Source: a bacterium (GTDB lineage: Bacteria > Patescibacteriota > JABMPQ01 > JBDRIV01). From it: a stretch of 64,000 nucleotides of DNA. Below, one piece after another: positions 14,383-64,000 of this stretch (positions are counted from its first letter, which is position 1; every line of letters begins with the position of its first letter). Position numbers and translations under genes: made by a program. The notes beneath the pieces were generated by a model, which was not told the DNA's origin, searched no databases, and saw only the letters and a list, made by a program, of their open reading frames with translations. The stretch spans positions 502,943 through 566,942 of the forward strand of contig JBDRIV010000002.1 in NCBI GenBank assembly GCA_043815505.1, read 5' to 3'.

Positions 14383-14425
14383 TTAGCTGTGCGTTTACTA
14401 AAACCTGACCCTCGCACAGCCCTTT
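14383..14425 (+). terminator. Rho-independent terminator
   Basis: GCTGTGCG-(loop)-CGCACAGC stem followed by CCTTTTTTTATTTT. Confidence 0.55.
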
Positions 14426-15315: not shown

Positions 15316-15328
15316 AATGGAGGAAGTT

Positions 15329-15514: not shown

Positions 15515-15625
15515 TTCCAAAATTCGGTCATGTTCTAGTAACTTTGAAGTCATCTTTTTATAGATACTTCATAAGAACCTGACCTTTTTCTTTACTTAAA
15601 TTCGAGAGTTTGATTAAATAAGATT

Positions 15626-24320: not shown

Positions 24321-24334
24321 TACAAATAAAAAAG

Positions 24335-24358
24335 GCGCTTCGCCAGAAGCGCTTTTTT
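24335..24358. terminator. Bidirectional intrinsic terminator
   Basis: GCGCTTC-GCCA-GAAGCGC flanked by A5 upstream and T6 downstream. Serves the convergent ahcY (+) and rhodanese (-) genes. Confidence 0.65.
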
Positions 24359-24374
24359 GATTAACAAATATTAA

Positions 24375-28659: not shown

Positions 28660-29508
28660 ATGGACAATAAAGTTAATATTTTAGATATCGAAATTGATGC
28701 TCTAACTAAAGCAGAAGCCACTAAAAAGATGCGTGGTCTTATTTTTCGTGACCGTCAATCTTTGGTGACAACTCCGAATCCAGAAATGTTAGTAGCAGCG
28801 ACACGAGATAGAGAATTTAAATATATTTTAGAGAAATCCGATTTAAAAATACCTGATGGCGTGGGATTGATGTGGGCCGCTTATGTTGCTCATGAACCAC
28901 TGCCTAAAGATTTCTTTATGCGTTTTTATGTTTTGCTTTGGCGATTTATTTTAGGTGAAGTGGCAATTGTTTTTAATAAGAAACGACTGCAAAGATATTT
29001 ACCAGAACAAATTTCTGGAACTGATATGGTTTATGACATTGCCCAGATTGCTAAAGAAAATGACTTAAGTATATTTTTACTTGGTTCTTACAATAAAACT
29101 GGCGAGCGCTGTGCTAAAAAACTGCAAGAACTTTATCCCGATTTGAAAATCGCTGGTACGCATGAGGGAAACTTTTCTGAAGTGGATGATAAAAACTCTC
29201 GCCAAATTATTAATGAATCAGGTGCCAACATTTTACTCGTTGCTTATGGACATTCTCGCCAAGAAAAATGGTTGGCCAGAAATTTAGAAAAGCTTCCGCA
29301 CGTAAAAATGGGTATTGGGGTAGGCGGAGCTTTTGATTATATTTCTGGAGATATTAAAAGAGCTCCCAAATTTATGCGCCTGCTTGGTTTGGAATGGTTA
29401 TTTAGAATGATAATACAACCTTCCCGAGTTTTTAGAATCATAACTGCCACTTGGACGTTTCCCAATATGGTTGTAAAATGGAAACTACTTAACAAAAATA
29501 ATGGTTAG
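28660..29508 (+). CDS. WecB/TagA/CpsF-family glycosyltransferase (GT26; UDP-ManNAc(A):lipid-linked GlcNAc transferase-like)
   Basis: 282 aa. VTTPNPEMLVAA, IPDGVGLMWAA, LLVAYGHSRQEKWLARN...MGIGVGGAFDYISGDIKRAPKFMRLLGLEWLFRMIIQPSR are hallmark GT26 motifs. Confidence 0.85.
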   Translation: MDNKVNILDIEIDALTKAEATKKMRGLIFRDRQSLVTTPNPEMLVAATRDREFKYILEKSDLKIPDGVGLMWAAYVAHEPLPKDFFMRFYVLLWRFILGEVAIVFNKKRLQRYLPEQISGTDMVYDIAQIAKENDLSIFLLGSYNKTGERCAKKLQELYPDLKIAGTHEGNFSEVDDKNSRQIINESGANILLVAYGHSRQEKWLARNLEKLPHVKMGIGVGGAFDYISGDIKRAPKFMRLLGLEWLFRMIIQPSRVFRIITATWTFPNMVVKWKLLNKNNG

Positions 29509-51203: not shown

Positions 51204-54170
51204 TTATTCCAAATTTGCGCCAATATTATCTAGCAAAACTTCACAATTTTTTTCATCTGAATTCCAGGTGATTTCAATATGAGAAAGTTTTTCGCTTGGA
51301 GCTGGCAGTTGCAAATAATATGGTTGCCAATCTTTGTTAATAGAAAATTCTCCGAGTGTATTTTTCTCTTCTTCTGATCTTGAAACACTGCCTGCAAGCA
51401 ATATATCATCGCTACAGCTCGTTTTAGCGTCAAAATAGACGTTTATCGGGTTATTTGCCACCTCATCCTGATAAACCGATATAATCGCATTTTTTCTAAT
51501 ACTACGGGTGGTTTCGTGTGTTATGGGGTCTGTATACATATCTTTGAATCCTGATCTCATTAGAAGTTTAGGAAAAGCACTGTTATAAGGTTCATCTTTT
51601 CCGACTCGGTAAGCTACATAACCATCTTGATTGTAAATTGTGTCAGCGCGAAATGATCTCTGTGATGTGTATTCGTGAAAATCTGAAACACCCATAAAAT
51701 TGTCAGCATCAATTACCACATAACCAATATTAAATTTTGCCAAACTTTCTTCTGCCCAATCATCATAGTAAGCACGGTCATAAATATTATACATTTCGTG
51801 AGCAACGTTCCAATTTATTTCCGAGCGAATAATTGGTTGAAAAGATGCAAAATCGGAGAGGGTTGAATATTTTCTACCTAGAAATATTTCATTTAGACTT
51901 TCAATATTTTTTATTATTATATCGTCTCTTTCAATAATATTTGCATCTAATTCTCTATTCTCTGTTGGTGTTTGCAGAATGTTTTGATTAGCAAAAGAAT
52001 TAATATTATTATAGACTTTTGGTATTTCTACTTCATCAACTTCTTGATAATTCATTTTTATTACTTCTATGTCTTTATTTTTCATAGTTGCACCTTGACT
52101 GTTCGTAATTTCAATTTTTAATGAATGTATTCCCGGTTCAATATTATTTATTAGAAATGATTTTCCTAATATGCCCTCAAAAATTGTATATTCTTCAATA
52201 ATTTCATCATCAAAAATGATTCGCAAAAGACTATTTTCAGAATTTTCTCCGCTATCAAAAACCATATTTATTTGAGTATTTATATTATCGTCTTTGGTAT
52301 TTTCAATTATCCAATTCTCTTCACTTGATACAAATTTAGTAACTCTTACCAATTGCTTTAAATCATCATATCTTAACTTTTTCTTTTCAATAAAACCATT
52401 TTCATAAATTAATAAATTTGGTTGGTCTATATTTTTACTTATTTCTGTAGAAAAAGCCACCACCGATGCATCTCTATAAACTTCATCTAATTCCATTTCA
52501 TTTCTGAGAAATTCAATAGTTCTGTTAAATTCATATAATGAGAACTTTATTTTATCTCTTTCAATCGCTTTTCTATCAATGACAATGTATTTAATATTGT
52601 TTTTTTCAAAATAGTGATGAGCTGTGTTTTTATAATCATGTTCTAAATAACTAAATTGAGATTGTGGCAATTGGTATAGTAATTTATTTAGAATTGGATC
52701 GCTCTTTTCCTCTAAAAATGAATTTGGTTTTTGCCTAGCAAAATCCATTCCCCCAAAAACTTTTTTATTATGCAAAGAATTAAAGTATTTTGATTCTGTT
52801 GCGGCCACATAACTGGTTGAATCTGGTATATGAACAATGGCATAATCTTCGGTATCTTGTTGCATTTTTACATAAAATGGCGAGGGGACAGTAAAAGAAG
52901 TTCTGGGAACTGCCCAAAAATCTAAAATAAGCAAACCAGTAATGGCCACAAAAATAATCTTTTTTGTACTTTCCTTTTTAAATTTTAAACTAATTATTCC
53001 ATATCCAACTAACATAGAAAAAGCTAACATAGCAAAAGGAAACATTCTCGCTACTGATCTAATATTATCTACAAATGGTAAATACTCATATAATAAAATA
53101 TATGGCATGGGAATTATTGGTTTTACTAAACCATAAAAATGTAAAAATGGTCCTAGGGAAAGAATAAAAAATACTGAAAATATAGAAAACCATAATTTCA
53201 TTTTTTTATCATGCCATTTTTTGGAAATTCCAAATATGGCAATTATTAAGGCTATAATTCCCAAATAAGTTGTATTCTCTCCCCTGCCTCCGGTAAATTT
53301 GTCCCGAACATTATCATCAAAATATTCTCCCCAAAATGGATTTAAACTTGGTGGAGTAATAACTCCTAAGGTATCAGCTGAATAATATATTGCTTCATTT
53401 AAATTTGGTTGTAAATAGTTATTATCTGAGTAGTTGATTTTTAAGTAAGGTTTGTATTTATATACTAATATTGAAACTCCAATAAGCAAAACAACTATTA
53501 CATATGTCCAAAACTTTTTGTTTTGTAATATTTTCTTATCTGTAATTATTTTCCAAATTAAAATTACTGCTGTTAATATTATTGTCCAATAAGCGAAATG
53601 TAATTCACTATTAACTATAAATAAGAAAGTTATTAAGATAGCGAGAGCATATTTAAACTTTAGGCTATTTAGAAATAAAAGAAGAAACAAAACATAAAAA
53701 GGTATAAATTCAATATGCGTTGCTCCCCCAAATCCCATTGCGTAAGCAAAATGAACTGGCGCAAATCCATAAACCAAACCCGCAATAAAAGATGCTAATT
53801 TCTTTTTAGATAAATAGTAAAATAGTAAATAGGCGCCAATGGCTGCTAAGGGAAAAGAAATTAACCAAATTACATTAAATGCCAAAGTAACATTACCAGT
53901 TAACGCTTTAATAAAATATGAATAGGTTGTTAAACTAAAATATCTATCAGGATTTGCAAAGTAGGTAAATTTTTCAAAACCTGTTTTAGATTCAATGCGT
54001 TTTTCCAAAACATTTGTTCTAGCCAAAACCGAATATGCATCATCCTCTCCGGGAATTTCTGTAGTTATTTTTGTGACTAATGGATAAGCCATTACTATTA
54101 TCAAAATACAGTAGATGGCTACTGCTATGAAAAATCCTTTATTTTTTAGAACTTTTTTTAAATCAATCAC
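51204..54170 (-). CDS. Very large polytopic membrane protein with C-terminal extracytoplasmic domain (GT-C-fold / YfhO-like)
   Basis: 988 aa. About 13 N-terminal TM helices with an early extracytoplasmic loop (EIPGEDDAYSVLARTN) resembling the DxD-like loop of GT-C enzymes. About 550-aa soluble C-terminal domain. Family call is tentative. Confidence 0.4.
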   Translation of the reverse strand: MIDLKKVLKNKGFFIAVAIYCILIIVMAYPLVTKITTEIPGEDDAYSVLARTNVLEKRIESKTGFEKFTYFANPDRYFSLTTYSYFIKALTGNVTLAFNVIWLISFPLAAIGAYLLFYYLSKKKLASFIAGLVYGFAPVHFAYAMGFGGATHIEFIPFYVLFLLLFLNSLKFKYALAILITFLFIVNSELHFAYWTIILTAVILIWKIITDKKILQNKKFWTYVIVVLLIGVSILVYKYKPYLKINYSDNNYLQPNLNEAIYYSADTLGVITPPSLNPFWGEYFDDNVRDKFTGGRGENTTYLGIIALIIAIFGISKKWHDKKMKLWFSIFSVFFILSLGPFLHFYGLVKPIIPMPYILLYEYLPFVDNIRSVARMFPFAMLAFSMLVGYGIISLKFKKESTKKIIFVAITGLLILDFWAVPRTSFTVPSPFYVKMQQDTEDYAIVHIPDSTSYVAATESKYFNSLHNKKVFGGMDFARQKPNSFLEEKSDPILNKLLYQLPQSQFSYLEHDYKNTAHHYFEKNNIKYIVIDRKAIERDKIKFSLYEFNRTIEFLRNEMELDEVYRDASVVAFSTEISKNIDQPNLLIYENGFIEKKKLRYDDLKQLVRVTKFVSSEENWIIENTKDDNINTQINMVFDSGENSENSLLRIIFDDEIIEEYTIFEGILGKSFLINNIEPGIHSLKIEITNSQGATMKNKDIEVIKMNYQEVDEVEIPKVYNNINSFANQNILQTPTENRELDANIIERDDIIIKNIESLNEIFLGRKYSTLSDFASFQPIIRSEINWNVAHEMYNIYDRAYYDDWAEESLAKFNIGYVVIDADNFMGVSDFHEYTSQRSFRADTIYNQDGYVAYRVGKDEPYNSAFPKLLMRSGFKDMYTDPITHETTRSIRKNAIISVYQDEVANNPINVYFDAKTSCSDDILLAGSVSRSEEEKNTLGEFSINKDWQPYYLQLPAPSEKLSHIEITWNSDEKNCEVLLDNIGANLE

Positions 54171-54179: not shown

Positions 54180-54857
54180 TTACTTTTTACAATTACCCCA
54201 AAAATTTGGATATAAATATAATGGTAATTTACTTGCTAATTTGAGAAAGAAAACTCCGATTGATCCAAATCTATCTCTGACTTTATTTTTATTGTGTTTC
54301 GTAATAATATTATACTTTTCAATAATAACATTATTAAACTTTGCTTCTTTTAAAAGTTTTTTTAAGCTGAAATAATTTTGTAAAGAACAATGCCATTTTT
54401 TATACTTTGTAAAACTTTTTGTCGCAATTATTGACCATGGTACATTTATAAATTTATTTGGTGTTTGAAATATAAAAATACCACCTGGCTTTAAAATTCT
54501 ATAAACTTGGTCTGATATAAATCTATTTATATTTGGAATATGTTCAATAACATCAAACATTAATATTACATCAAAGGAATTGTCATCAAAAGGAATTTCA
54601 TTTCCTTTATAATGCATTAGTCTTTCACTAATACTATTATATTTTATTTTACCTTCGGATATTGTTTTTATATTCTTGTCTATTCCATAAATATCATTAT
54701 AGCCTTTTCTGTATAAATTATATAATAAACTTCCATATCGGCAACCAATATCAATTATTTTATTTTTATTATGAATGTTTAAAGATTCAATATATTTTAA
54801 GGAAGAATAAATATTACCATGTTCATTGCGAAATAAATTTTTACTTCCTTTTTCCAT
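54180..54857 (-). CDS. Class I SAM-dependent methyltransferase
   Basis: Motif I IIDIGCRYGSLLYNL, post-I DIYGIDKN, motif II FDVILMFDVIEHIP, motif III LKPGGIFIFQTP. Start placed at the internal Met (MEKGSKNL) because the longer 54968 start adds a non-conserved hydrophobic leader. Confidence 0.75.
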   Translation of the reverse strand: MEKGSKNLFRNEHGNIYSSLKYIESLNIHNKNKIIDIGCRYGSLLYNLYRKGYNDIYGIDKNIKTISEGKIKYNSISERLMHYKGNEIPFDDNSFDVILMFDVIEHIPNINRFISDQVYRILKPGGIFIFQTPNKFINVPWSIIATKSFTKYKKWHCSLQNYFSLKKLLKEAKFNNVIIEKYNIITKHNKNKVRDRFGSIGVFFLKLASKLPLYLYPNFWGNCKK

Positions 54858-54968
54858 AGAAATTAAAACTTTAATTTTAAATAAGCCATAATAATGACTT
54901 CCTGTGCTTAAATTATAACAAAATATAACGATATAGACAATATTTCTTGATAGTTTATAATTAATCAT

Positions 54969-57254
54969 ATGACTTTAATGTCCTATTTATTTATGTGTTT
55001 TACAAACAACCATAAAATTATTAGTTTATGCAAGAGCTTAACAAATAAACTTAGCTGGGTTTTTATTTCAATTTTGATTATTCAGTTTGTTCTTGATTCT
55101 TTTAATCTTATTAGCTTGAAGCTAAATGAGGATCCAATTTTAATATTTCTAATTTTAATAGATCTTATAATTGTAAATAGATTAACTTCAAAGAAGGGTC
55201 TTCAACATAAGAAGTTTTGGTTTTGGATGTTAATTACTTTATTTATTTTTAATATAATTTGGTCATTTGGTCTGAGTGAATTTAAATCTTATAATATATA
55301 TAAATTTAATATCACATTAAACTATTTATTAATACTTATAGGCTTATCTTTTCTAAAAACGTCACATAAATATATACAGAATATTATAATATTTATAAAG
55401 AAAACTTCCACCAAGGTTGATACCGAACTACAAAATAATGATAAAAAATCCTCAACAAAATCAAAAGCTCTAACTATAGTTATCGTTTTACTATTACTTA
55501 GTTTATTCGTTTTTCTTAAGCTACCCTACATAAATAGCACCATAGATCACACCTCTCCTAACTATGATAAGTTTAAAACATATCTACCAGTTTTAATAAA
55601 TTCATATCAGGAAAACAATTTGTTTTCCAGTAATAACTATTTTTACAAAAATCTTGATTCTCCTAGAATTAAAATCCCAACACCTTATCAGGACTTTCCT
55701 TTCTACTCTTGGACCCTTTATCCATTTATGTTTTTAACAGAAACAATTTCCTTTCTTTTAATTGTTAAGGTTTTTTTAATTGTAATTGATGTATTAATTC
55801 TTTTTGGATTCTATCTAATCCTTCGTAAACTGTTTGCAACCAAGGTGGCATTTACTGGTTTACTACTTCTGGCAATAAACAGTTTTTTACATAATTATTT
55901 CTTTGTTACCGTAATGGATAAACCCGGACTCTTATTTTTTGTATATTCAGTTGTTTTATATCTTTACAAAAAAAATAATCTCTCTTATACACTCTCTGGT
56001 TTATCTATACTAAACAGAATATCGTTTGCACCAATAGTATTTGGCTTCTATGTTTTTGGCATTATGATAAAAAAAGATCGTATTTCAAACAAAACTGTAG
56101 AAGTTATTAAAATGTTTATTCTTTCTTTATTACCATATATATTATTTCAATCTTTTACTAAATATATACCTCAATATGAATCTCCATATAATTTTCTTAT
56201 TCTGATTGGCACTGTCCTTTTCTATATACTTATTTATTTCTTATTAAAAAATAAAACGATTGATGTTAAAATTATTAAAAATAAACTGTTCTTAATACCC
56301 GCATTTTTATTTGGTGTTTTAGTATCATATGTAATATGCAGTAAATTCAATCTGTTAAATAATAATTTTATAACAGATTTATCTATTCTTTTTAAACCTA
56401 ATATTTATTATCTGATAATAAGACAATTAGAGAACTTCTTTCCAATCTGGATCTGGTCAATAGTAATATTTGGAATAGTTCTTAGTTTCAATTCTCGTAA
56501 ATTTATTAAAACAATTCCTTTGTTTCTAATTGGATCATTATTATATTTAGTAATAGGTTCTAAGGCTATCTTTTTTCACAATTACTACAGACATATATTT
56601 GTAGTTGTTATTATATTACTCATTTGCACCTTTCTATCATATATTTCCCATATTTCAAAAAAAAGAATAATTAGTAATACAATATACATTATTCTTGTTT
56701 TATTTATATCTATAAGTACATTCACTATTTCTCATAATAGAGCTACCGATTTAGCTGAAGGCAATAACATATTAGATTATGAGTCATCAATTCAATTTAT
56801 AAAGGATAATATAAAAATAAATGAATACACTTTAACACCAAATTCTAGATTAAGAAACGGCTTAATATTATTATCTTTTAGATCACCTGCGAGTTTTTCT
56901 AAAAATATTATAGAAGAAATTAGTAATAATGGTTTTTGTCAAACCATGACAAAATATAATGTTAAATATTATATTTCTGATAATGAATCAGATTTTAGTG
57001 ATTTATTATATTTGTTTGAGTCATTTAATTATGATACCGTTTCTAGATCAGAACAAATTCTATACAGAATTAGCGATAGTGCGTTAAATAAATACCCTTC
57101 AAATAAACTTGTTGATGTTAGAAGTGATCTCAAATCTACAAGTAATGAAATTGATACAAGTTTTTTACTTGATACATATAATCCTTCTCAATATTACAGT
57201 CTAAATCATAGCCAAAATGAATTTTATTTCTACACTCTAAATAGTTGTAATTAG
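54969..57254 (+). CDS. Very large polytopic membrane protein (O-antigen polymerase / GT-C-like), extremely AT-rich
   Basis: 761 aa with at least 16 predicted TM helices and a soluble C-terminal ~170 aa. Strongly Ile/Leu/Phe/Asn/Lys-biased. Divergently arranged with the 54180 methyltransferase. Confidence 0.35.
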   Translation: MTLMSYLFMCFTNNHKIISLCKSLTNKLSWVFISILIIQFVLDSFNLISLKLNEDPILIFLILIDLIIVNRLTSKKGLQHKKFWFWMLITLFIFNIIWSFGLSEFKSYNIYKFNITLNYLLILIGLSFLKTSHKYIQNIIIFIKKTSTKVDTELQNNDKKSSTKSKALTIVIVLLLLSLFVFLKLPYINSTIDHTSPNYDKFKTYLPVLINSYQENNLFSSNNYFYKNLDSPRIKIPTPYQDFPFYSWTLYPFMFLTETISFLLIVKVFLIVIDVLILFGFYLILRKLFATKVAFTGLLLLAINSFLHNYFFVTVMDKPGLLFFVYSVVLYLYKKNNLSYTLSGLSILNRISFAPIVFGFYVFGIMIKKDRISNKTVEVIKMFILSLLPYILFQSFTKYIPQYESPYNFLILIGTVLFYILIYFLLKNKTIDVKIIKNKLFLIPAFLFGVLVSYVICSKFNLLNNNFITDLSILFKPNIYYLIIRQLENFFPIWIWSIVIFGIVLSFNSRKFIKTIPLFLIGSLLYLVIGSKAIFFHNYYRHIFVVVIILLICTFLSYISHISKKRIISNTIYIILVLFISISTFTISHNRATDLAEGNNILDYESSIQFIKDNIKINEYTLTPNSRLRNGLILLSFRSPASFSKNIIEEISNNGFCQTMTKYNVKYYISDNESDFSDLLYLFESFNYDTVSRSEQILYRISDSALNKYPSNKLVDVRSDLKSTSNEIDTSFLLDTYNPSQYYSLNHSQNEFYFYTLNSCN

Positions 57255-58525
57255 TAATATTTATTATTCTCATAAATAACCTTTTGGTAAAGCTCCTTAA
57301 ATTTTTCAACTTGTATCTCAGATTTATATACCTCTAGAGATTTTCTTCTGGCACTTCGTCCAAGTATATTGTTTCTTTCCTTATTTTCAATTATCCATTT
57401 AATCCCCTCAGTCAAATCATGAACGTCTTTATAAAATGCAAGATAGCCATTATTTTTGTGATCAATAATATCTTTTATTCCACTTGTCGAAAAAGATACT
57501 GCCGGTGTTCCACAAGCAAATGACTCTAGCAATGTATTGGGCAAATTATCTTGTAATGCTGGAAGAACAAAAACATTGGCGGCATTATAAGCATCAATAA
57601 TCTTATTTTTATCGTTTATTTTGCCTAGTAGAATTGTTTCAAATGGTAAATTATTTAAATCAATATTATTAGCATTACCAAATATTAATATACTTATTTT
57701 ATTATCATTAATATTCTTATCTTCTTTCAATATTGATAGAGCATTTATTAAGTATTTAAATCCCTTCCTTTTTTCACTTACTTTTGCTGCTCCAAATAAT
57801 ATAACAAATTTATTCTTAGCTAATCCTAAATTATTTCTAGCCTTATTTTTGTCACGAGGTTGATAAATATTGGTATCTATCCCGTTTGGTATTAATGACA
57901 CATTATTATCTCTAAAAATATAGCTTTCTTCAACACATTTCTTCATCCATTTTGATAAAACAACAATATGTATTTTTAAATCTTTAAATCCTTCTATTTT
58001 CTTATTAAAACTCTTAAATGATAAATCTCTTTCTGTGTTTGATGCCAATTTCGGGCAATTGCCACAATTACTTTTATATTTAGTGCAATTACCGGAATAA
58101 TGACAACCACCTGTAAAGGGCCACATATCATGTAAAGTCCACACAATTGGTTTTTTTAATTGATTAAGACTAGTTATATCCTTAACAGACAAAAAACCAT
58201 TGTTAATCCAATGTAAATGAATAATATCAGGATTAATCTTCCTTATTTTTATCGTTGTATTGCTCGATAACCTAGATACACTAAATAGTCCACTTTCACG
58301 TTCTTTGTACAAATAAAGTGGGGCATTATCTATAATATTATGAATCTTCGTATAACTTCTTGAAAAAAGACTATTTGGACCAATGACGTTTGGATCCTTA
58401 CTAAGTTTTCGTTGCACTAATATTTTTGACTCAACACCACTGTTTATTAATCCCTCATGAAGCCTGCGAGTTGCAATTGCCGCCCCACCACCAGAATCAG
58501 TTGTGTTAAGTAATAAGACCTTCAT
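57251..58525 (-). CDS. Glycosyltransferase family 4 (WcaC-like)
   Basis: 424 aa. N-terminus MKVLLLNTTDSGGGAAIATRRLHEGL... and the C-terminal GT-B Rossmann domain. Confidence 0.7.
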   Translation of the reverse strand: MKVLLLNTTDSGGGAAIATRRLHEGLINSGVESKILVQRKLSKDPNVIGPNSLFSRSYTKIHNIIDNAPLYLYKERESGLFSVSRLSSNTTIKIRKINPDIIHLHWINNGFLSVKDITSLNQLKKPIVWTLHDMWPFTGGCHYSGNCTKYKSNCGNCPKLASNTERDLSFKSFNKKIEGFKDLKIHIVVLSKWMKKCVEESYIFRDNNVSLIPNGIDTNIYQPRDKNKARNNLGLAKNKFVILFGAAKVSEKRKGFKYLINALSILKEDKNINDNKISILIFGNANNIDLNNLPFETILLGKINDKNKIIDAYNAANVFVLPALQDNLPNTLLESFACGTPAVSFSTSGIKDIIDHKNNGYLAFYKDVHDLTEGIKWIIENKERNNILGRSARRKSLEVYKSEIQVEKFKELYQKVIYENNKYY

Positions 58526-59256
58526 TATTTTTTAGCTATTATTACAATTCTTGTTGATAAAATTTTATTTTTTAATGGCAAAATCTTTATTATTTGCGAT
58601 ATTAGTTTAATCACAAATCTAGTATATTTTTTAACTTTAGCTGTTTTTTCTAACCACAATCCTGGTTTTCCATAATATAATATTTTATAATATTTTAAGT
58701 TCAGAGAATTCAATATTTTTTTAATATTCTCTATTTTCATCGCTTCCAAATTATGAGCATCATAATTTTTATTATCAAAATATTTTTGCACAAAACCGTT
58801 TAAGCCAAGAAAATTTGGTAATGATATTAACATTATTCCACCCTTTTTTGTTATTTCATAATGCTTTTTATATATGATTTCTAGATTTTGAAAATGTTCA
58901 ATAAATCCAGATGAAAAAACAACATCATATTTTTTGTCAGTTTTATAAGAAATAAATTCTGTCTCAATTAATTGAATAGATTCTTCTTTAATGCTATTTA
59001 TTCTTTCCATTTCTCTTACTATTTTCTCATCAATATAGTAATCAAGTAAAGACACCTCATATCCTTTGTACTTCTTCATATAAACGGAAAATGTTCCTGG
59101 AAATCCACCAATTTCAATAAAACTTTTATTATCTGCTAGAGTTTTAAAAATATCATCAAACATAACCCTATTAACTATCTTAGGCTTATAATTTGACCAG
59201 TATGACTTCCAAAATATTCTATCAGTAATAGAATTGCTTAATTTATTATTTTTCAT
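58525..59256 (-). CDS. Class I SAM-dependent methyltransferase
   Basis: 243 aa. Motif I FIEIGGFPGTFSVYM and motif II YDVVFSSGFIEHF. Confidence 0.65.
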   Translation of the reverse strand: MKNNKLSNSITDRIFWKSYWSNYKPKIVNRVMFDDIFKTLADNKSFIEIGGFPGTFSVYMKKYKGYEVSLLDYYIDEKIVREMERINSIKEESIQLIETEFISYKTDKKYDVVFSSGFIEHFQNLEIIYKKHYEITKKGGIMLISLPNFLGLNGFVQKYFDNKNYDAHNLEAMKIENIKKILNSLNLKYYKILYYGKPGLWLEKTAKVKKYTRFVIKLISQIIKILPLKNKILSTRIVIIAKK

Positions 59257-60160
59257 TAGTAAAATCTTTGATTTTCTGTGAAATTCTTACTCTATATATT
59301 TTCTTAAATTCCCTTAATATTTTAATATTTTCTACCACTTCATTTGAGAATGAATTATTGGAGTACTTAAAATTATTGAGTGTTTTATGTTTTAAATATC
59401 CCCTTTTTCCCCCGTGCGTTCCACTTCCATCTTGACCAATATTATATAAGTAATGTTTTTTAGGAAATAAACAATAGGCATTATTTTTGTAATGTGCGTA
59501 GCACCAGCGAATTGCCCAAGAATCAAGTTGCCCATTTATTTGCTTATTTAACATTCTATTCAAATCTTCTCCTCCTTTGTTAAATATTTTTTGAGCTTTT
59601 TTATCAGTAGAAAACTCCTCAAAGTCTTTTACTTCCCAATCAACTTCTTGCCATCTATTTTTCCATGTTCCCCATCCCCAAGAACTTGCTCTGGGACTAA
59701 AATATGTTTCATACTCTGTTATAGAATCTAAATTTTTATTGACTATTGGATTATAGCCTGTTATAGAATATACTTTTTTATTGTATTTATAAAATTTCAG
59801 TGCTTCGTTCATATAATTTAAGAATGTCTTAGCCACTATTATATCATCTTCCAAAACTATGATATTTCCATATTTGTTTATGACTTTGGTAACACCATCA
59901 ATTACAGAATTAGCCAAACCATAATTTTTATCTCTCGTAAATATTTCAAGGCTTTTAAAACCAGTAATTTTATTTACTATATTTTTTACTGCCGATACTT
60001 TTTTTTCATCTTCTTCATTTTTTGGTCCATCACAAAATATTACTAAATCACTTTTTATTGCTTTTGTATTACCCCGCAATGCTCTTAATGTCTTACTAGT
60101 ATGTTCTGGTCTATTGTACACAAACAGAGTTATTGGTGCCAATTTTTTATCACCTGACAT
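59246..60160 (-). CDS. GT-A fold glycosyltransferase (GT2-like)
   Basis: 304 aa. ITLFVYNRPEHTSKTLRALRGN...VIFCDGP..., then NIIVLEDDIIV (DxD-like ED/DD). Confidence 0.55.
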   Translation of the reverse strand: MSGDKKLAPITLFVYNRPEHTSKTLRALRGNTKAIKSDLVIFCDGPKNEEDEKKVSAVKNIVNKITGFKSLEIFTRDKNYGLANSVIDGVTKVINKYGNIIVLEDDIIVAKTFLNYMNEALKFYKYNKKVYSITGYNPIVNKNLDSITEYETYFSPRASSWGWGTWKNRWQEVDWEVKDFEEFSTDKKAQKIFNKGGEDLNRMLNKQINGQLDSWAIRWCYAHYKNNAYCLFPKKHYLYNIGQDGSGTHGGKRGYLKHKTLNNFKYSNNSFSNEVVENIKILREFKKIYRVRISQKIKDFTNEK

Positions 60161-61079
60161 GTTTTTGTGATTTTAAGTATGATTTTATTTTCCCGTATGC
60201 AATTATTAACCTTCTAACAATTTTAAGAAAATAATTTTGTCTATAAGGATATTTCCTTCTATTACGAAAAGGAAACATTATTAAACCAACAATAAATAAT
60301 ACAAATCCAATTATTATATGTATAAAACTAGAAAATAATTTATTATTTCGTTCTGGATATATGAATCTGGAATTAAAACTGGTTGCTATAAATCTTTTTA
60401 TAATATATTTAACTTTCATTTTTTCCTCTGTCACCAAATGATAGACAATCAATTTTTTACTGAAATACCTTTTAATTCCATTTTTATAAGCAATCAGTTG
60501 TAGTTTTGTTTCTTCCCCAACCGAAATTTCATTATTGCCTTTCATTCCTAAGTTTAAATCAAATCTTCCAATTTTCTCAAAAACATTTTGATTTATAAAA
60601 ATATTCGAACCCGACAAGAATTTCTTTTTCGTATCAATATAACTAGATTTTTTTAGCGGTTTTCTAATTTCATATTCATCTCTAAACCACTTTGGCTTTT
60701 TTGTTATATAAAATGGATAAATAGGACCTCCAAATATTTCTGGTCTTTTTTTCTTAATTGTTCTATAAGCTATTTCAAGCCAATCATTATTTGCTTTAGC
60801 ATCATCATCAAGAAAGGATATATAATTAGTCTGACATTCTTCTATTCCTTTATTTCTTGCATAACTAAGACCTTGATTTTTTTCAACAACATATCTTAAA
60901 TTAAGCTTATTTTCAAAGCTTTTTGAAATCTCTTTTGTGTCATCAGTTGAATTATTATCAACAACAATAACATCAAAATCACTTTTATCCAGTGTTTGGT
61001 CCACGAGGCTCAAAAGAGCCATTTTAAGCAATTGAGCACGATTATAGGTGCAAATTACTACTGTTATTGATTTATTCAT
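60150..61079 (-). CDS. Glycosyltransferase family 2 with C-terminal TM
   Basis: 309 aa. ITVVICTYNRAQLLKMALLSLVDQT, DNNSTD, FLDDDAKA (DxD). C-terminal TM helix. Confidence 0.8.
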   Translation of the reverse strand: MNKSITVVICTYNRAQLLKMALLSLVDQTLDKSDFDVIVVDNNSTDDTKEISKSFENKLNLRYVVEKNQGLSYARNKGIEECQTNYISFLDDDAKANNDWLEIAYRTIKKKRPEIFGGPIYPFYITKKPKWFRDEYEIRKPLKKSSYIDTKKKFLSGSNIFINQNVFEKIGRFDLNLGMKGNNEISVGEETKLQLIAYKNGIKRYFSKKLIVYHLVTEEKMKVKYIIKRFIATSFNSRFIYPERNNKLFSSFIHIIIGFVLFIVGLIMFPFRNRRKYPYRQNYFLKIVRRLIIAYGKIKSYLKSQKHVR

Positions 61080-61914
61080 TTACTTTGTATAATCTTGATT
61101 TTATGGCTTTTTTCAATTCATTATCACCCAATTTAGAAGAAGTCTCAAGTCCTTTTTTCAATTCATTACATATTTCTATTTTTGATAGATTAGGTAAATT
61201 AGTGTTCAATCTTCTAATATATGCATTGTATTTAGCTAAAATAAAATTCACTTGACCAATAAGCATCTTAGTTGGATCATTGCCTTGTGAATTTGGCAGA
61301 ACTCTGTAATTGTATAATATTTTGTTTAGAAAATATGGTTTTGTAAACTCTTCTAATTTAAAAATAATATCTTTATCTTCTGAGTATAATAGTTTCTCAT
61401 CATAACCTGTTGTTTGATTGTAAATATTTTTCCGAAAAGTTTTAAAATGACTTATTTTGTTAAGATGTAAATTACTTTTTCCTTTTGGAATCTTTTTATT
61501 ATATCCCACATTTCTTTTTGTCATATCACTATTACAATACATAAATTGTGAGTATACAAATCCCAGCTCCGGCTTTTTAGTATAGCATTTTAGAATCTCA
61601 CAAACCGCATTTGTTTTTAGTGAATCATCACTATCCAATATTCCTACAATATCTGTTTCGGCTGCATCAATAAGTTTTATTAGAGTTCCGGTATATCCAA
61701 CATTTTCTTTATTCTGAATTAACTTAATATTTTTATGATCCAAATATGGCTTTATCAATTGTACAGAATTATCCTGAGAACAATCATCAATTATTATTAG
61801 ATTCCAATCTTTACTGTTTTGACTAATAACTGAATTTAAAGATTCCTCAATATACTTTGAGTTATTGTAGTTTGCCATCAATATTGTAATTGAATTTTTT
61901 ATATCTTTTTTCAT
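61072..61914 (-). CDS. Glycosyltransferase family 2
   Basis: 280 aa. ITILMANYNNSKYIEESLNSVISQNSKDWNLIIIDDCSQDNS and LDSDD. Confidence 0.8.
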   Translation of the reverse strand: MKKDIKNSITILMANYNNSKYIEESLNSVISQNSKDWNLIIIDDCSQDNSVQLIKPYLDHKNIKLIQNKENVGYTGTLIKLIDAAETDIVGILDSDDSLKTNAVCEILKCYTKKPELGFVYSQFMYCNSDMTKRNVGYNKKIPKGKSNLHLNKISHFKTFRKNIYNQTTGYDEKLLYSEDKDIIFKLEEFTKPYFLNKILYNYRVLPNSQGNDPTKMLIGQVNFILAKYNAYIRRLNTNLPNLSKIEICNELKKGLETSSKLGDNELKKAIKSRLYKVNE

Positions 61915-62822
61915 TTTTTGTATGAAATACCAATTCCCGCTCCACTATACCAATGATTTGCTGGTTCCTCACTAAAAAACATAAACTGACGATTGTTTTC
62001 TAGTGAAAACTTAGACAATTTATCTGAACAATGACTATTGTCTCCTAAAAGTACTCCTTTTTCAGATAGTTTATTCTTTATTACCTGATATTCCTGATAC
62101 TCATAATTCGGTGAGTGATCACTGTCGTTTATAAAAATGTCTATTTCTTCATCTAGGTTCTTTAGACTTTTAATTGAATCTCCATAAAGTATCTCTCCAT
62201 ACTTTTTATATTTTTCTCCTAAAAGTAGACCACCTTTTGGATTAATCTCTGTACCATAATACTTTCCCTGGTATCCTTCTTTACTATTTTTCATTATTGC
62301 ATAACAAAGCAAGACTGAACCTAATCCATTATAGACCCCAGTTTCTACTACAATTTTAGGTTTCATTTGACGTACTATCGCATACCATCCTAATCGTCTT
62401 CCAAAATCAGATCTTTTATCTGAGACTCTATTTAATTCATTTTCATTTTCCGTTCGCATAATTACATATTCCTTTAATTCTATATCATTTCTAGCCTCAT
62501 TTATGTAGGTTATAATTTTATCATATTTTTCATTAAATATATTAGCAATCATATGTGCTAAATATTCAATATTTTTTTCTGTTAAATCATAAGTAAAATT
62601 AGTTTTTTCTTTTGATTTAACCACCCATTTTAAAATCCTTAAATGCTTTTTTCTCAATCCTTTAGTTGCTTTTACATATCTGGGAAATAGTTGAAGCATT
62701 CTCGAATGAGAAACTTTTCTAATAATATTATAGAAATTAGACTTTTTCAATTTTTCTAGGTATTTCTTGAGTTTTGGATTATTATCAATTTTTCTATAGA
62801 TAGTAGAATTTTTAATTTTCAT
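61911..62822 (-). CDS. TylF/MycF-family (macrocin O-methyltransferase-like) class I SAM-dependent methyltransferase
   Basis: 303 aa. VETGVYNGLGSVLL (SAM-binding Gly-rich motif as in TylF/CmcI) and FINDSDHSPNYEY (metal-binding Asp pair). Confidence 0.55.
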   Translation of the reverse strand: MKIKNSTIYRKIDNNPKLKKYLEKLKKSNFYNIIRKVSHSRMLQLFPRYVKATKGLRKKHLRILKWVVKSKEKTNFTYDLTEKNIEYLAHMIANIFNEKYDKIITYINEARNDIELKEYVIMRTENENELNRVSDKRSDFGRRLGWYAIVRQMKPKIVVETGVYNGLGSVLLCYAIMKNSKEGYQGKYYGTEINPKGGLLLGEKYKKYGEILYGDSIKSLKNLDEEIDIFINDSDHSPNYEYQEYQVIKNKLSEKGVLLGDNSHCSDKLSKFSLENNRQFMFFSEEPANHWYSGAGIGISYKK

Positions 62823-62856
62823 TTAATTACTTTAATTTTTTTAAATACTACCAATT

Positions 62857-63780
62857 TTATTCTGAATACTTAATAATTGTTTCCTTACTAGGCATTGAAT
62901 CAGTTGAATATATATTATCTAAACCAAAACTTTTAAGAATTTGGACTGATTTTTCTATTTCATCATCCGCCACGTGCTCTCTCCAGCCGGAAACTAAATC
63001 ACTTCCGGTATTTAAAGCGCTATTTTCACCAGTCATTGCCGACGGTTTTTTCATAACATTTTTGATTTTAGGATCAAATGGTTTTTTCAAATACTTAAAT
63101 AATCTGGATATTTCATTGTCTGAATCCTGACAAAGATTTTCATAAAATACTAGGTGAACATTTTTTTTCTTTAGCTGACGAAGTGGTATGAAATACAGAA
63201 TGCACCACAAATAAATAAATTCGTAAAAAGTTCCAAAAGATTCTTTTATATCATCTAAATATGGTTGCAAATAATCCTTAATAATTTCTTTTTGGGAAAG
63301 AATTATATCTAGGTCTCTTTTATCTCCCTTAATCTCTTTCCCCCACCCTTTCTCACGCCATGATGATGCCACCGCCAACGGATGTCGAAACAATAATATT
63401 ATTGGTAAATTTGGAAATTGTTTTTCCATCCACCCTAACAATAAATTAGTTCTAATGTCCTTGATAATTCTTTTATTGCTAATGAGCTTTTTATTAAACT
63501 TGTCTGACCATAAATTTCTTATTTTTCCTGTAAATAGATCTTTGACAGGTTTTACAAGTTCCGTACGCTTGTCATCTGGTCTAAAATATTGAATATATTT
63601 ATAATTTTTGAATTCGGGAACCATTTTAGAATTTATTGGTTCAAATATTTCTCTATATTCATTTCTATAATTTATTATTTCTGATAACCAAGTACTACCA
63701 CTTCTTCCCATGCTAGATATAAAGATTGTATTCTCTATTTTATCTCCGTAATCAATAAAATACTTATTTGCTAACTTCAT
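62857..63780 (-). CDS. Sulfotransferase-family protein (PAPS-dependent)
   Basis: 307 aa. 5'-PSB motif ISSMGRSGSTWLSEIIN and 3'-PB-like region ILLFRHPLAVASSWREKGW. Confidence 0.65.
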   Translation of the reverse strand: MKLANKYFIDYGDKIENTIFISSMGRSGSTWLSEIINYRNEYREIFEPINSKMVPEFKNYKYIQYFRPDDKRTELVKPVKDLFTGKIRNLWSDKFNKKLISNKRIIKDIRTNLLLGWMEKQFPNLPIILLFRHPLAVASSWREKGWGKEIKGDKRDLDIILSQKEIIKDYLQPYLDDIKESFGTFYEFIYLWCILYFIPLRQLKKKNVHLVFYENLCQDSDNEISRLFKYLKKPFDPKIKNVMKKPSAMTGENSALNTGSDLVSGWREHVADDEIEKSVQILKSFGLDNIYSTDSMPSKETIIKYSE

Positions 63781-63781
63781 A

Positions 63782-64000
63782 TTATATTTTTATCCAATCT
63801 TTAGGCAATAGATCCTTAATGTCTTTATTGCCAGCCTGAAACCAAACTTTGGGAGCAATTACAATTTTATGTTCATTTTTATTCAACCAAGCGCCCCACC
63901 AACTAAAAGAACTGTTAGCTATAATTTGATGTTCACATCTGCTCATTAATACTAAATCTATATGACCAGGATTATTAAAGAAGTATGTTTCATATTCCGT
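63782..64000 (-). CDS. GT11-family alpha-1,2-fucosyltransferase, C-terminal fragment (N-terminus lies beyond the window)
   Basis: Minus-strand frame translates to ...TEYETYFFNNPGHIDLVLMSRCEHQIIANSSFSWWGAWLNKNEHKIVIAPKVWFQ.... HxxxxxxS(N)SSFSWW(G/A)A(W/Y)L is the GT11 motif IV. Stop at 63782-63784. Confidence 0.75.
   Translation of the reverse strand, partial: TEYETYFFNNPGHIDLVLMSRCEHQIIANSSFSWWGAWLNKNEHKIVIAPKVWFQAGNKDIKDLLPKDWIKI

What the first reader, a model, noticed from the sequence alone, without database searches (positions are those of the whole stretch)
54180..64000. AT-rich tailoring cassette (3 methyltransferases, a sulfotransferase, a GT11 fucosyltransferase, 4 GTs and a 761-aa polymerase-like membrane protein) at the end of the glycan locus
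From about 54.2 kb onward the sequence is visibly more AT-rich than the rest of the window, with long runs of Asn/Lys/Ile/Phe codons. The genes are a class-I methyltransferase, a very large membrane protein, a GT4, a second methyltransferase, three GT-A/GT2 enzymes, a TylF-like O-methyltransferase, a PAPS-type sulfotransferase and a GT11 alpha-1,2-fucosyltransferase. Together they imply an O-methylated, sulfated, fucose-containing surface glycan. The compositional break suggests horizontal acquisition of the variable, serotype-like part of the locus. A sulfotransferase in a reduced-genome (CPR-like) glycan locus is unusual because the sulfotransferase needs PAPS, which this genome would have to make or import. 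An epibiont could use it to mimic host sulfated or fucosylated glycans.
Basis: partly seen in the sequence, partly recalled or inferred. Interest (0 to 1): 0.7.

Follow-up and report, generated by a model that had tools for sequence, protein, structure and literature searches.

The report
Fucose-methyl-sulfate glycan module in CPR
The AT-rich end of this ultra-small (CPR) bacterium's sugar-coat locus is a real, compositionally foreign gene block: a conserved core built around a rare membrane glycosyltransferase, plus a swappable tail that here adds fucose, methyl and sulfate groups. It is interesting mainly because the cell would need a sulfate donor (PAPS) that is not encoded in the 64 kb we can see.

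Summary
The GC drop is real (0.334 to 0.265; 2-kb windows z = -3.5 to -6.6). It starts at about 51.9 kb, inside the 988-aa gene, not at 54.18 kb. It extends to synonymous sites: 4-fold GC falls from 0.28-0.32 to 0.20-0.23, and RSCU correlation with housekeeping genes is 0.85, against 0.96 for the upstream glycan genes.

HMMs confirm three methyltransferases, GT4, two GT2, a GnT-I-like GT-A, a PAPS-type sulfotransferase with intact motifs, and the C-terminal 72 aa of a GT11.

The 761-aa "polymerase-like" protein is instead a rare PMT_2-type GT-C glycosyltransferase: 198 representatives among 1.84 billion proteins, with named members in archaea and CPR. "TylF-like" is only Methyltransf_24.

Synteny with three to four other contigs shows a conserved core (988-aa protein, GT-C, GT4, GnT-I-like GT) and a variable tail. 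The tail always contains a fucosyltransferase and methyltransferases, and sometimes a sulfotransferase. The window's sulfotransferase, Methyltransf_24, second GT2 and first methyltransferase are absent from the closest syntenic locus.

LepA places the organism in Patescibacteria. Horizontal origin is plausible but unproven, because no mobility signatures were found. PAPS and GDP-fucose supply could not be tested.

The parts
51204..54170 (-). 988-aa orphan polytopic membrane protein: about 9 TM-like segments in residues 1-420, then a ~560-aa soluble part. It is a conserved partner of the GT-C, and the GC change point (~51,880) lies inside this gene.
   Evidence: No Pfam, NCBIfam or PDB hit. Orthologs in L004 (28.5% over 975 aa) and L003-type locus L093 (38% over the first 421 aa, cut by the contig end), in the same position and orientation. 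TM count. Codon usage groups it with the cassette (RSCU r = 0.956).
54180..54968 (-). Class I SAM methyltransferase (Methyltransf_23/11). It has the lowest GC of the window (0.219) and is absent from the syntenic loci. M38 is a plausible true start.
   Evidence: Pfam 1.7e-19. No counterpart in L004 or L093. The M1 start abuts the GT-C start with 0 nt between divergent genes.
54969..57254 (+). 761-aa GT-C-fold glycosyltransferase of a rare PMT_2-related family: about 15 TM-like segments plus a C-terminal extracytoplasmic domain. It is not a Wzy-type polymerase.
   Evidence: No direct Pfam hit, but 47 of 50 family members hit PF13231 PMT_2. 198 representatives in 1.84e9 proteins. AF2 pLDDT 82.5; Foldseek best hits are AglB, STT3, DPY19 and PglB, then ALG9 and ArnT. 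No WWDxG or DxD motif; conserved K201, W248, D317, D470, K532, H537, Y539, Y540 and R693.
57251..58525 (-). GT4 glycosyltransferase, core member; last gene of the minus-strand operon, convergent with the GT-C.
   Evidence: Pfam Glycos_transf_1 2.7e-25. Orthologs at 42% (L004) and 45% (L093) in the same position.
58525..59256 (-). Class I SAM methyltransferase (Methyltransf_23).
   Evidence: Pfam 1.7e-10. 51% ortholog in L004. Absent from L093.
59246..60160 (-). GnT-I-like GT-A glycosyltransferase with an EDD motif at residues 104-106; core member.
   Evidence: Weak PF03071 GNT-I (1.4e-5, 24.6 bits vs cutoff 25.4). PDB profile hit to GnT-I, E = 0.037. Orthologs at 45% (L004) and 47% (L093). The family is widespread, with at least 557 metagenome matches.
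60150..61079 (-). GT2 glycosyltransferase with one C-terminal TM segment.
   Evidence: Pfam 2.1e-33. 47% ortholog in L004. TM.
61072..61914 (-). Second GT2 glycosyltransferase, part of the window-specific trio.
   Evidence: Pfam 6.5e-26. No ortholog in L004 or L093.
61911..62822 (-). Methyltransf_24 SAM methyltransferase (cation-dependent O-methyltransferase-like), part of the window-specific trio.
   Evidence: PF13578 5.2e-14. Weak PDB hits to PaMTH1 and a putative O-methyltransferase. No TylF hit. No ortholog in L004 or L093.
62857..63780 (-). Cytoplasmic PAPS-type sulfotransferase, part of the window-specific trio, lying directly beside the GT11 gene.
   Evidence: Sulfotransfer_1 1.8e-13 and Sulfotransfer_3 9.5e-10. 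5'-PSB G25-R26-S27-G28-x-T30-W31 and 3'-PB R132-H133-P134...S140 are invariant in a 55-sequence family alignment. AF2 pLDDT 92.7; fold matches TPST, SULT2A1 and CurM-ST. No TM. Best non-self homolog 56%, then about 47%.
63783..64000 (-). C-terminal 72 aa of a GT11 alpha-1,2-fucosyltransferase-family gene. The gene continues beyond the window.
   Evidence: PF01531 4.1e-10, 39.8 bits (cutoff 23.9), model positions 236-296 of 298. 56% identical to the GT11 C-terminus of L004. Carries the motif ANSSFSWWGAWL.

Best explanation
Window 51.2-64.0 kb (continuing past the window end) is one compositionally distinct glycan-assembly module attached to a native Wzx/Wzy-type glycan locus of a deep-branching Patescibacteria (CPR) genome. 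It has two layers.

(1) A conserved core: an orphan 988-aa polytopic membrane protein, a rare PMT_2-type GT-C glycosyltransferase, a GT4 and a GnT-I-like GT-A. In this sub-lineage the core also includes MT23, GT2_60150 and GT11.

(2) A variable tailoring layer. In related loci it always includes a fucosyltransferase (GT11 or GT10) and methyltransferases, and sometimes a sulfotransferase. Here it consists of MT_54180 and the trio GT2_61072, Methyltransf_24 and sulfotransferase, which sit between GT2_60150 and GT11.

Proposed mechanism (inferred): soluble cytoplasmic GTs build an oligosaccharide containing fucose on a polyprenyl-phosphate carrier. SAM-dependent methyltransferases and the PAPS-dependent sulfotransferase modify it in the cytoplasm, possibly on or near the fucose. 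After flipping, the GT-C acts at the outer face of the membrane. It either transfers the glycan to an extracytoplasmic acceptor (protein or wall polymer) or adds a polyprenyl-P-linked sugar to it.

Shown: family assignments, intact cofactor motifs, folds, synteny, and compositional and codon distinctness. Inferred: substrates, order of steps, acceptor, and horizontal origin.
For: Composition:
- Change point at 51,880; z = -3.5 to -6.6.
- 4-fold-site GC: 0.277 (housekeeping), 0.322 (upstream glycan), 0.233 (988-aa gene), 0.200 (cassette).
- RSCU r: housekeeping vs upstream glycan 0.962 (baseline 0.964), housekeeping vs cassette 0.854, 988-aa gene vs cassette 0.956.

Families.

GT-C identity.

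Sulfotransferase:
- Motifs and fold.
- No TM segments in the GTs, MTs or sulfotransferase.
- Four homolog contexts are all GT-rich polysaccharide loci.

Synteny:
- L004/L026 share 988-aa protein, GT-C, GT4, MT23, GnT-I-like GT, GT2 and GT11 at 28-56% identity in the same order.
- L093 shares 988-aa protein, GT-C, GT4 and GnT-I-like GT at 37-47%, followed by GT2, GT10, an unrelated sulfotransferase and two MT_21.
- L094 and L095 have the GT-C beside GT11 and methyltransferases.

Operon: the tightly overlapping minus-strand genes from 63,998 down to 57,251 indicate one operon (coordinates).

Organism: the named LepA top hits at 57-62% identity are almost all Patescibacteria lineages (one Methylomirabilota exception).

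Precedent for methylated and sulfated fucose: NoeI and NoeE of NGR234 (PMC4881576). The window sulfotransferase has a weak NCBIfam hit to NoeE (1.5e-5, far below cutoff).
Against: - No biochemical data exist. Donor and acceptor specificities of every enzyme are inferred from family membership only.
- Only 72 aa of the GT11 are in the window.
- No GDP-fucose (gmd/fcl) or PAPS (sat/cysDN/cysC) genes are in the 64 kb, so precursor supply is unknown.
- The sulfotransferase's best structural matches are protein-tyrosine and small-molecule sulfotransferases at TM about 0.45-0.58, not carbohydrate sulfotransferases.
- The GT-C itself scores no Pfam hit. Its acidic EL1-type residue (D200) is not conserved across the family, and E263, conserved in 84% of the family, is Leu here.
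- The full module is seen in only one other contig among 80 loci anchored on the GnT-I-like GT.
- Horizontal origin rests on composition and patchy distribution alone. No mobility genes or repeats were found.
- Low GC is common in surface-polysaccharide loci for other reasons (own knowledge).
Confidence: 0.6

Rival explanations
1. The block is native and vertically inherited. Its AT-richness reflects relaxed selection, low expression or mutational AT bias on accessory surface-glycan genes rather than horizontal acquisition. Differences between loci reflect lineage-specific gene loss.
For: There is no integrase, tRNA, direct repeat, plasmid or phage similarity at the borders. The change point lies inside an intact gene whose ortholog aligns across it. 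The related module in L004 is also somewhat AT-richer than its flanks (GT-C 0.283, GT2 0.280, GT11 0.281 vs 0.32-0.39), suggesting a property of the module rather than of one transfer. The largest shift is at codon position 1, i.e. in amino-acid composition.
Against: Synonymous 4-fold sites also shift (0.28-0.32 to 0.20) and RSCU correlation drops to 0.85. The neighbouring accessory glycan genes at 37.8-51.2 kb are indistinguishable from housekeeping genes (0.962). Membrane proteins elsewhere in the window (Wzx, Wzy, MurJ) have normal GC. Nearest homologs of individual genes lie in unrelated taxa with GC 0.44-0.48 (sulfotransferase) or in archaea (GT-C).
Confidence: 0.25
2. The sulfotransferase is not a glycan-modifying enzyme. 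It sulfates a protein tyrosine, lipid or small molecule, or it is inactive for lack of PAPS in a reduced genome.
For: The best fold matches are tyrosylprotein sulfotransferases and cytosolic SULTs. The 5'-PSB uses Arg (GRSGSTW) as in TPSTs (own knowledge). No PAPS genes are in the window. Characterised sulfated-capsule clusters carry cysNDC in the cluster (PMC11641403), and this one does not within the window.
Against: The gene sits inside a tightly packed GT/MT operon, 2 nt from the GT11 and 34 nt from the MT24. All four homolog contexts examined are polysaccharide loci. All 26 family-invariant residues are intact, which argues against decay. An independent, non-orthologous sulfotransferase sits beside the fucosyltransferase in the related module L093. 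PAPS synthase annotations have been reported in some CPR (PMC12114108).
Confidence: 0.12
3. Assembly or binning artefact: the AT-rich segment belongs to another organism and was joined chimerically to the contig.
For: There is an abrupt composition and codon-usage change. The source is a MAG labelled only '[bacterium]'.
Against: The change point falls within a continuous 988-aa ORF whose L004 ortholog aligns from residue 15 to 939, across the change point. The contig is 567 kb. The window shows no ORF break at the junction and no gap.
Confidence: 0.03

Closest known systems
Sulfated capsular/O-antigen polysaccharide gene clusters of marine bacteria (e.g. Vibrio sp. KMM 8419, Cobetia marina KMM 1449; PMC11641403, PMC11766843)
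   Same: They are polysaccharide loci that combine GT2/GT4 enzymes with cytoplasmic PAPS-type sulfotransferases. Sulfotransferase presence or absence varies between strains, and horizontal transfer is suspected.
   Different: Those clusters carry their own cysN/cysD/cysC copies and ABC/Kps export genes. Here no PAPS genes are visible in 64 kb. The host is a CPR bacterium, and the module is organised around a rare GT-C and an orphan 988-aa membrane protein.
Nod-factor fucose tailoring in Rhizobium sp. NGR234 (NodZ fucosyltransferase, NoeI 2-O-methyltransferase, NoeE fucose sulfotransferase; PMC4881576)
   Same: It combines a fucosyltransferase, an O-methyltransferase and a PAPS-dependent sulfotransferase acting on one fucose residue. 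The window sulfotransferase has a weak NCBIfam hit to NoeE (1.5e-5).
   Different: The NoeE hit scores 23.9 bits against a cutoff of 500, so the window protein is not a family member. The fucosyltransferase here is GT11, not NodZ/GT23 (own knowledge). The acceptor is a polyprenyl-linked glycan rather than a lipo-chitooligosaccharide, and fucose as the sulfation target is only inferred from adjacency.
GT-C glycosyltransferases of the PMT_2 / ArnT / PMT type (CAZy GT39/GT83) and oligosaccharyltransferases AglB/STT3/PglB
   Same: The protein has a predicted GT-C fold with about 13-15 TM helices and a C-terminal extracytoplasmic domain. Family members hit PF13231 and are named GT39 by NCBI. The gene sits next to a lipid-linked glycan assembly operon.
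   Different: The window protein itself scores no Pfam hit. It has no WWDxG or DxD OST motifs. TM-scores are only about 0.3-0.5. The family is very small (198 representatives), and no member is characterised.
Low-GC O-antigen / capsule serotype cassettes of Enterobacteria and others (own knowledge)
   Same: A surface-glycan locus with lower GC than the genome, a mosaic of GTs and tailoring enzymes, and gene content that varies between relatives.
   Different: Here a large part of the low-GC block is a conserved core shared across distant genomes. Only four genes are demonstrably differential. No close relatives are available to show serotype-like replacement.

Membership tests
PAPS-dependent sulfotransferase (Pfam Sulfotransfer_1 / Sulfotransfer_3) | Family HMM above the gathering score | tested here: met
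   PF00685 50.9 bits (cutoff 22); PF13469 39.5 bits (cutoff 27).
PAPS-dependent sulfotransferase (Pfam Sulfotransfer_1 / Sulfotransfer_3) | 5'-phosphosulfate-binding loop and 3'-phosphate-binding motif | tested here: met
   G25-R26-S27-G28-S29-T30-W31 and R132-H133-P134...S140 are invariant or near-invariant in a 55-sequence alignment and present in the window protein. Assignment of these residues to the PSB and PB motifs rests on own knowledge of the family.
PAPS-dependent sulfotransferase (Pfam Sulfotransfer_1 / Sulfotransfer_3) | Sulfotransferase alpha/beta fold | tested here: met
   AF2 pLDDT 92.7, pTM 0.91. Foldseek probability 1.00 to TPST1/2, SULT2A1 and CurM-ST, with TM 0.45-0.58.
PAPS-dependent sulfotransferase (Pfam Sulfotransfer_1 / Sulfotransfer_3) | Availability of the donor PAPS in the cell (sat/cysDN + cysC, or import) | not testable with these tools
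   None is present in the 64-kb window. The rest of the 567-kb contig could not be retrieved.
GT11 alpha-1,2-fucosyltransferase | Family HMM above the gathering score and the C-terminal conserved motif | tested here: met
   PF01531 39.8 bits (cutoff 23.9) on the 72-aa fragment, with motif ANSSFSWWGAWL. 56% identical to the GT11 of L004.
GT11 alpha-1,2-fucosyltransferase | Full-length intact gene, including the N-terminal GDP-fucose-binding motifs | not testable with these tools
   The gene runs off the window end at 64000, and the source contig is not retrievable.
   No Pfam or NCBIfam hit. Relatives hit PMT_2, not Wzy_C. A separate Wzy_C protein exists at 40708-42207.
GT-C glycosyltransferase, PMT_2 type (GT39/GT83-like) | Family HMM | tested here: inconclusive
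   The window protein has 0 hits. 47 of 50 aligned relatives hit PF13231 (best 1.1e-17) and 8 hit PF02366.
GT-C glycosyltransferase, PMT_2 type (GT39/GT83-like) | GT-C fold: multi-TM N-terminal module plus an extracytoplasmic domain | tested here: met
   AF2 pLDDT 82.5. Foldseek E 4e-8 to 5e-5 to AglB, STT3, DPY19 and PglB, then ALG9 and ArnT. About 15 TM-like segments.
GT-C glycosyltransferase, PMT_2 type (GT39/GT83-like) | Conserved acidic catalytic residue in the first extracytoplasmic loop | tested here: inconclusive
   D200 in the DKF motif is not conserved family-wide. K201 is invariant, D317 is 98% conserved and D470 86%. Their positions relative to the membrane were not mapped.
Oligosaccharyltransferase STT3/AglB/PglB | WWDxG motif and DxD/ExD motifs | tested here: not met
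   The sequence has no WW or DxD; only the unconserved DTE151, DYE603, DNE671 and EID727 are found.
   Only PF13578 Methyltransf_24 is reported at E <= 0.01. NCBIfam gives no hit.
Horizontally acquired genomic island | Deviant base composition and codon usage | tested here: met
Horizontally acquired genomic island | Mobility signatures (tRNA target, integrase/transposase, flanking direct repeats, similarity to plasmids or phages) | tested here: not met
   The only tRNAs are at 9.1 and 12.4 kb. The repeats found are short, low-identity AT-rich matches. No plasmid or phage match. The right border lies outside the window.
Horizontally acquired genomic island | Absence from an otherwise collinear site in close relatives | not testable with these tools
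   No close relative was found. The best LepA hit is 62% identical, and the source genome is not among the GTDB representatives.
Sulfated-polysaccharide biosynthetic cluster (hallmark proposed in PMC11641403) | Sulfotransferase and PAPS-synthesis genes together in the polysaccharide cluster | tested here: not met
   The sulfotransferase is present, but no cysN/D/C lies within the window or within +/-8 kb of four homologs.

The most novel reading that the evidence does not exclude
A CPR episymbiont uses an archaeal-type GT-C glycosylation module to display a fucosylated, O-methylated and sulfated surface glycan, while lacking its own PAPS and GDP-fucose pathways. The module's family is otherwise named only in Methanosarcinales, Haloarcula and another CPR. 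On this reading the activated donors must be taken from a host, and the module (with its swappable fucose-tailoring tail) has been exchanged between CPR bacteria and archaea that may be their hosts.
Probability: 0.1. Interest if true: 0.75.

Novelty: new variant of a known kind. Interest (0 to 1): 0.45.

Why it matters
CPR/Patescibacteria live attached to host cells, yet almost nothing is known about their surface glycans. This locus predicts a concrete, testable chemistry: fucose with O-methyl and sulfate groups.

It also predicts a concrete dependency. PAPS and GDP-fucose must be made or imported, and this can be checked on the full genome.

The work also defines a small, uncharacterised GT-C family with an orphan 988-aa partner. 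The family recurs next to fucosyltransferase/methyltransferase/(sulfotransferase) operons in CPR-like and archaeal genomes. That makes it a candidate extracytoplasmic glycan-transfer system worth structural and biochemical study.

If the rest of the genome does encode PAPS synthesis, the finding reduces to an ordinary, if rare, sulfated-polysaccharide locus.

Tried and rejected
- Retrieving the source contig, to read past 64 kb and to look for cysC/cysDN/sat and gmd/fcl. Exact-protein look-ups failed and the genome is not among the GTDB representatives.
- Wzy-type polymerase reading for the 761-aa protein. Rejected.
- OST (STT3/PglB) membership for the GT-C. Rejected for lack of WWDxG and DxD.
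- Relating the 988-aa protein to the GT-C family or to any solved structure. There are no Pfam, NCBIfam or PDB hits. hhalign gives only a 50-column C-terminal similarity (probability 83%) and nothing for the membrane domain.
- Looking for flanking repeats or mobile elements. Only chance-level AT-rich matches were found.
- Promoter and terminator scans. These are at shuffle level and uninformative.
- Testing whether GT2_61072, MT24 and the sulfotransferase travel together. They do not, in four homolog contexts.
- Using the GnT-I-like GT as a synteny anchor. The family is widespread across GC 0.25-0.68, and only one of the 80 loci carries the module.
- Archaeal GT-C loci. They share a convergent GT operon but have no fucosyl/methyl/sulfate tail.
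- Literature search for sulfotransferases in CPR. Nothing relevant was found.

Full report
OBSERVATION

The window averages GC 0.31-0.37 up to about 51 kb and 0.24-0.29 from about 52 kb to its end. A single-change-point likelihood scan puts the break at 51,880 (GC 0.334 on the left, 0.265 on the right, log-likelihood ratio 109). 2-kb windows in 54-64 kb lie 3.5-6.6 standard deviations below the distribution of 2-kb windows in 1-51 kb. The AT-rich tract is therefore real and far beyond chance.

Per gene, the cassette has GC 0.22-0.30, against 0.28-0.38 elsewhere. The N+K+I+F+Y fraction is 0.39-0.50. This is not only an amino-acid effect:
- GC at 4-fold degenerate sites is 0.277 in housekeeping genes, 0.322 in the upstream glycan genes (37.8-51.2 kb), 0.233 in the 988-aa gene and 0.200 in the cassette.
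- The RSCU correlation with housekeeping genes is 0.962 for the upstream glycan genes, equal to the housekeeping half-versus-half baseline of 0.964. It is 0.898 for the 988-aa gene and 0.854 for the cassette.
- The 988-aa gene and the cassette correlate with each other at 0.956.
- Other membrane proteins in the window (Wzx, Wzy, MurJ) have normal GC.

GENE CONTENT

Pfam and NCBIfam confirm the following:
- 54180-54968: Methyltransf_23/11.
- 57251-58525: GT4.
- 58525-59256: Methyltransf_23.
- 59246-60160: a GT-A enzyme with a weak GNT-I hit. It scores 24.6 bits against a cutoff of 25.4, has an EDD motif, and gives a PDB profile hit to GnT-I at E = 0.037.
- 60150-61079 and 61072-61914: GT2.
- 61911-62822: Methyltransf_24.
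- 62857-63780: Sulfotransfer_1/Sulfotransfer_3.
- 63783-64000: the last 72 residues of a GT11 (PF01531, 39.8 bits against a cutoff of 23.9), with the motif ANSSFSWWGAWL.

Only PF13578 is hit, with weak PDB similarity to cation-dependent O-methyltransferases.

Genes from the GT11 down to the GT4 lie on the minus strand with overlapping or nearly abutting stops and starts, which indicates one operon. The GT-C gene on the plus strand converges on it (coordinates).

THE 761-aa PROTEIN

This protein has no Pfam, NCBIfam or PDB sequence hit. A word-indexed search found only two relatives. An exhaustive profile search found 198 cluster representatives among 1.84 billion proteins, so the family is rare.

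- 47 of 50 aligned members hit PF13231 (PMT_2) and 8 hit PF02366 (PMT).
- NCBI names two archaeal members 'glycosyltransferase family 39 protein' (Methanosarcina sp. KYL-1 and Haloarcula halophila). Another member is from Candidatus Kerfeldbacteria, a CPR lineage.
- The only GTDB-representative relatives are Methanolobus, Methanosarcina and an unnamed archaeon.
- An AlphaFold model (pLDDT 82.5; the N-terminal ~160 residues are low-confidence) matches AglB, STT3, DPY19 and PglB best, then ALG9 and ArnT.
- The sequence lacks WWDxG and DxD. The family's conserved polar residues are K201, W248, D317, D470, K532, H537, Y539, Y540 and R693.

It is therefore a GT-C-fold, PMT_2-related glycosyltransferase. 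It is not a Wzy-type polymerase and not an STT3-family oligosaccharyltransferase. A bona fide Wzy_C protein and a Wzx flippase lie in the upstream locus.

THE SULFOTRANSFERASE

The family has at least 190 members. The best non-self hit is 56% identical and the rest are 47% or lower. Named members come from Rubrobacter, Actinomycetota, Desulfobacteraceae and Lentisphaerae, and none from CPR.

- The window protein keeps all 26 family-invariant residues. These include the 5'-PSB loop GRSGSTW and the 3'-PB stretch RHP...S.
- Its model (pLDDT 92.7) has the PAPS-sulfotransferase fold. No solved structure is close: the best matches are TPST1/2, SULT2A1 and CurM-ST at TM 0.45-0.58 and 13-18% identity.
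- It has no TM segment, so it is predicted to act in the cytoplasm.
- Four homologs on long contigs all lie in GT2/GT4-rich polysaccharide loci, often with further sulfotransferases and methyltransferases. These loci have GC 0.44-0.48, and none has PAPS-synthesis genes within 8 kb.

SYNTENY

- Contig Ga0066637_10000193 (L004/L026) carries, in the same order and orientation, orthologs of the 988-aa protein (28.5%), GT-C (41%), GT4 (42%), MT23 (51%), GnT-I-like GT (45%), GT2_60150 (47%) and GT11 (56% over the C-terminus; the gene is split by a frameshift there). It lacks MT_54180, GT2_61072, MT24 and the sulfotransferase.
- L093 carries the 988-aa protein (38%), GT-C (37%), GT4 (45%) and GnT-I-like GT (47%). 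A different tail follows: GT2, a GT10 fucosyltransferase, a 232-aa Sulfotransfer_1 protein unrelated to the window's, two Methyltransf_21 and a radical-SAM protein.
- L094 and L095 have the GT-C (38-41%) preceded by a Laminin_G_3 protein. It converges on operons that contain GT11 and methyltransferases.
- The Methanolobus locus has two PMT_2 proteins and a convergent GT/Wzx operon, but no fucosyl, methyl or sulfate genes.
- Anchoring on the GnT-I-like GT returned at least 557 metagenome matches across GC 0.25-0.68. Only the Ga0066637 contig carries the full module.

The block therefore has a conserved core and a variable tailoring layer. In the closer subgroup, the variable layer repeatedly combines a fucosyltransferase with methyltransferases and, twice independently, with a sulfotransferase. 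The upstream Wzx/GT genes are only 22-29% identical between the window and L004, so they are less conserved than the module.

ORGANISM AND PRECURSORS

LepA's named top hits at 57-62% identity are almost all Patescibacteria-group lineages (Parcubacteria, Doudna-, Buchanan-, Komeili- and Gracilibacteria); the exceptions are one Methylomirabilota hit and one labelled only '[bacterium]'. The source contig is 567 kb. 'CPR-like' is supported, and the lineage has no close sequenced relative.

All ORFs of the window were scanned. None encodes sat, cysD/N, cysC, cysQ, gmd or fcl. An S-adenosylhomocysteine hydrolase (23064-24320) and a tandem rhodanese are present. The rest of the genome could not be retrieved.

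In the held literature, one paper reports PAPS synthase annotations in groundwater CPR (PMC12114108). No paper links sulfotransferases with CPR glycans. Characterised sulfated-capsule clusters carry cysNDC in the cluster (PMC11641403). Combined methylation and sulfation of fucose has a precedent in NGR234 Nod factors (NoeI and NoeE; PMC4881576). The window protein's NoeE hit is far below cutoff and is only a lead.

ORIGIN

Composition, codon usage, patchy distribution and distant nearest homologs favour a foreign origin for 51.9-64+ kb as a unit, and a separate origin for the inserted trio. Against a recent event:
- There is no tRNA, integrase or meaningful repeat, and no similarity to plasmids or phages.
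- The change point lies inside an intact gene whose ortholog aligns across it. This also argues against an assembly chimera.
- The right border is outside the window.
- The related module in L004 is only mildly AT-richer than its flanks.

I rate horizontal origin at about even odds, or slightly better.

VERDICT

The gene list is largely right, with two mislabels. The 'variable, horizontally acquired cassette' reading is partly right, because only four genes are demonstrably differential and the rest form a conserved module.

The PAPS question is legitimate but untested. The added value of this analysis is the definition of a rare GT-C-centred module with a fucose/methyl/sulfate tailoring layer. 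That makes this a new variant of a known kind (surface-glycan biosynthesis loci) of moderate interest.

Noticed in passing
window 12970-15600: A stretch of about 2.6 kb has no credible ORF and no Rfam match (the only hit is a chance-level snoRNA at E = 0.054). This is unusual in an otherwise gene-dense small genome. It lies next to a tRNA (12357-12428) and a stand-alone GIY-YIG nuclease ORF (12559-12837).
   Followed up: partly
alignment A3; loci L007, L008, L009; proteins P0130, P0137, P0141: The rare GT-C family has named members only in archaea (Methanosarcina, Methanolobus, Haloarcula, an unnamed archaeon) and in CPR (Candidatus Kerfeldbacteria and this genome). This suggests an archaea + CPR distribution, but most members are unnamed metagenome sequences.
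   Followed up: partly
L004 16260-17119: The GT11 ortholog in the syntenic contig is split by a frameshift into a 211-aa N-terminal part and a C-terminal part. This is either a pseudogene or an assembly error. The contig ends 10 bp upstream of its start, and two other contigs with the same locus also end inside the module.
   Followed up: no
window 54858-55230: The longest ORFs of MT_54180 (minus strand) and the GT-C (plus strand) start head-to-head with 0 nt between them. M38 of the methyltransferase would leave 111 nt. The NCBI start of the GT-C (675 aa, P0121) is probably too short, because residues ~40-100 of the 761-aa ORF are conserved in P0122.
   Followed up: partly
L093 7133-8838: A non-orthologous 232-aa Sulfotransfer_1 gene sits directly beside a GT10 fucosyltransferase in a related module. 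This mirrors the sulfotransferase-GT11 adjacency in the window and looks like an independent recruitment of sulfation next to fucosylation.
   Followed up: partly
L094 171-1298; L095 8796-10004: In two related loci a Laminin_G_3-domain protein lies immediately upstream of the GT-C, overlapping it, in place of the 988-aa membrane protein. It may be a partner or an acceptor.
   Followed up: no
window 419-5253 and 37848-39773: There are two DUF4012 proteins in one window. The first (1536-3704) sits with a GT4 and MurJ in a second small envelope cluster. A WecG/TagA-family transferase lies at 28660-29508.
   Followed up: no
window 23064-25187: An S-adenosylhomocysteine hydrolase lies next to a tandem-rhodanese protein. 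The hydrolase is relevant to recycling the by-product of the three SAM methyltransferases. No methionine adenosyltransferase was seen in the window.
   Followed up: no
L007 7276-11320: In Methanolobus the GT-C homolog (824 aa) is preceded by a second PMT_2 protein (537 aa) that overlaps it. This is a paired-membrane-protein arrangement reminiscent of the 988-aa protein and GT-C pair.
   Followed up: no
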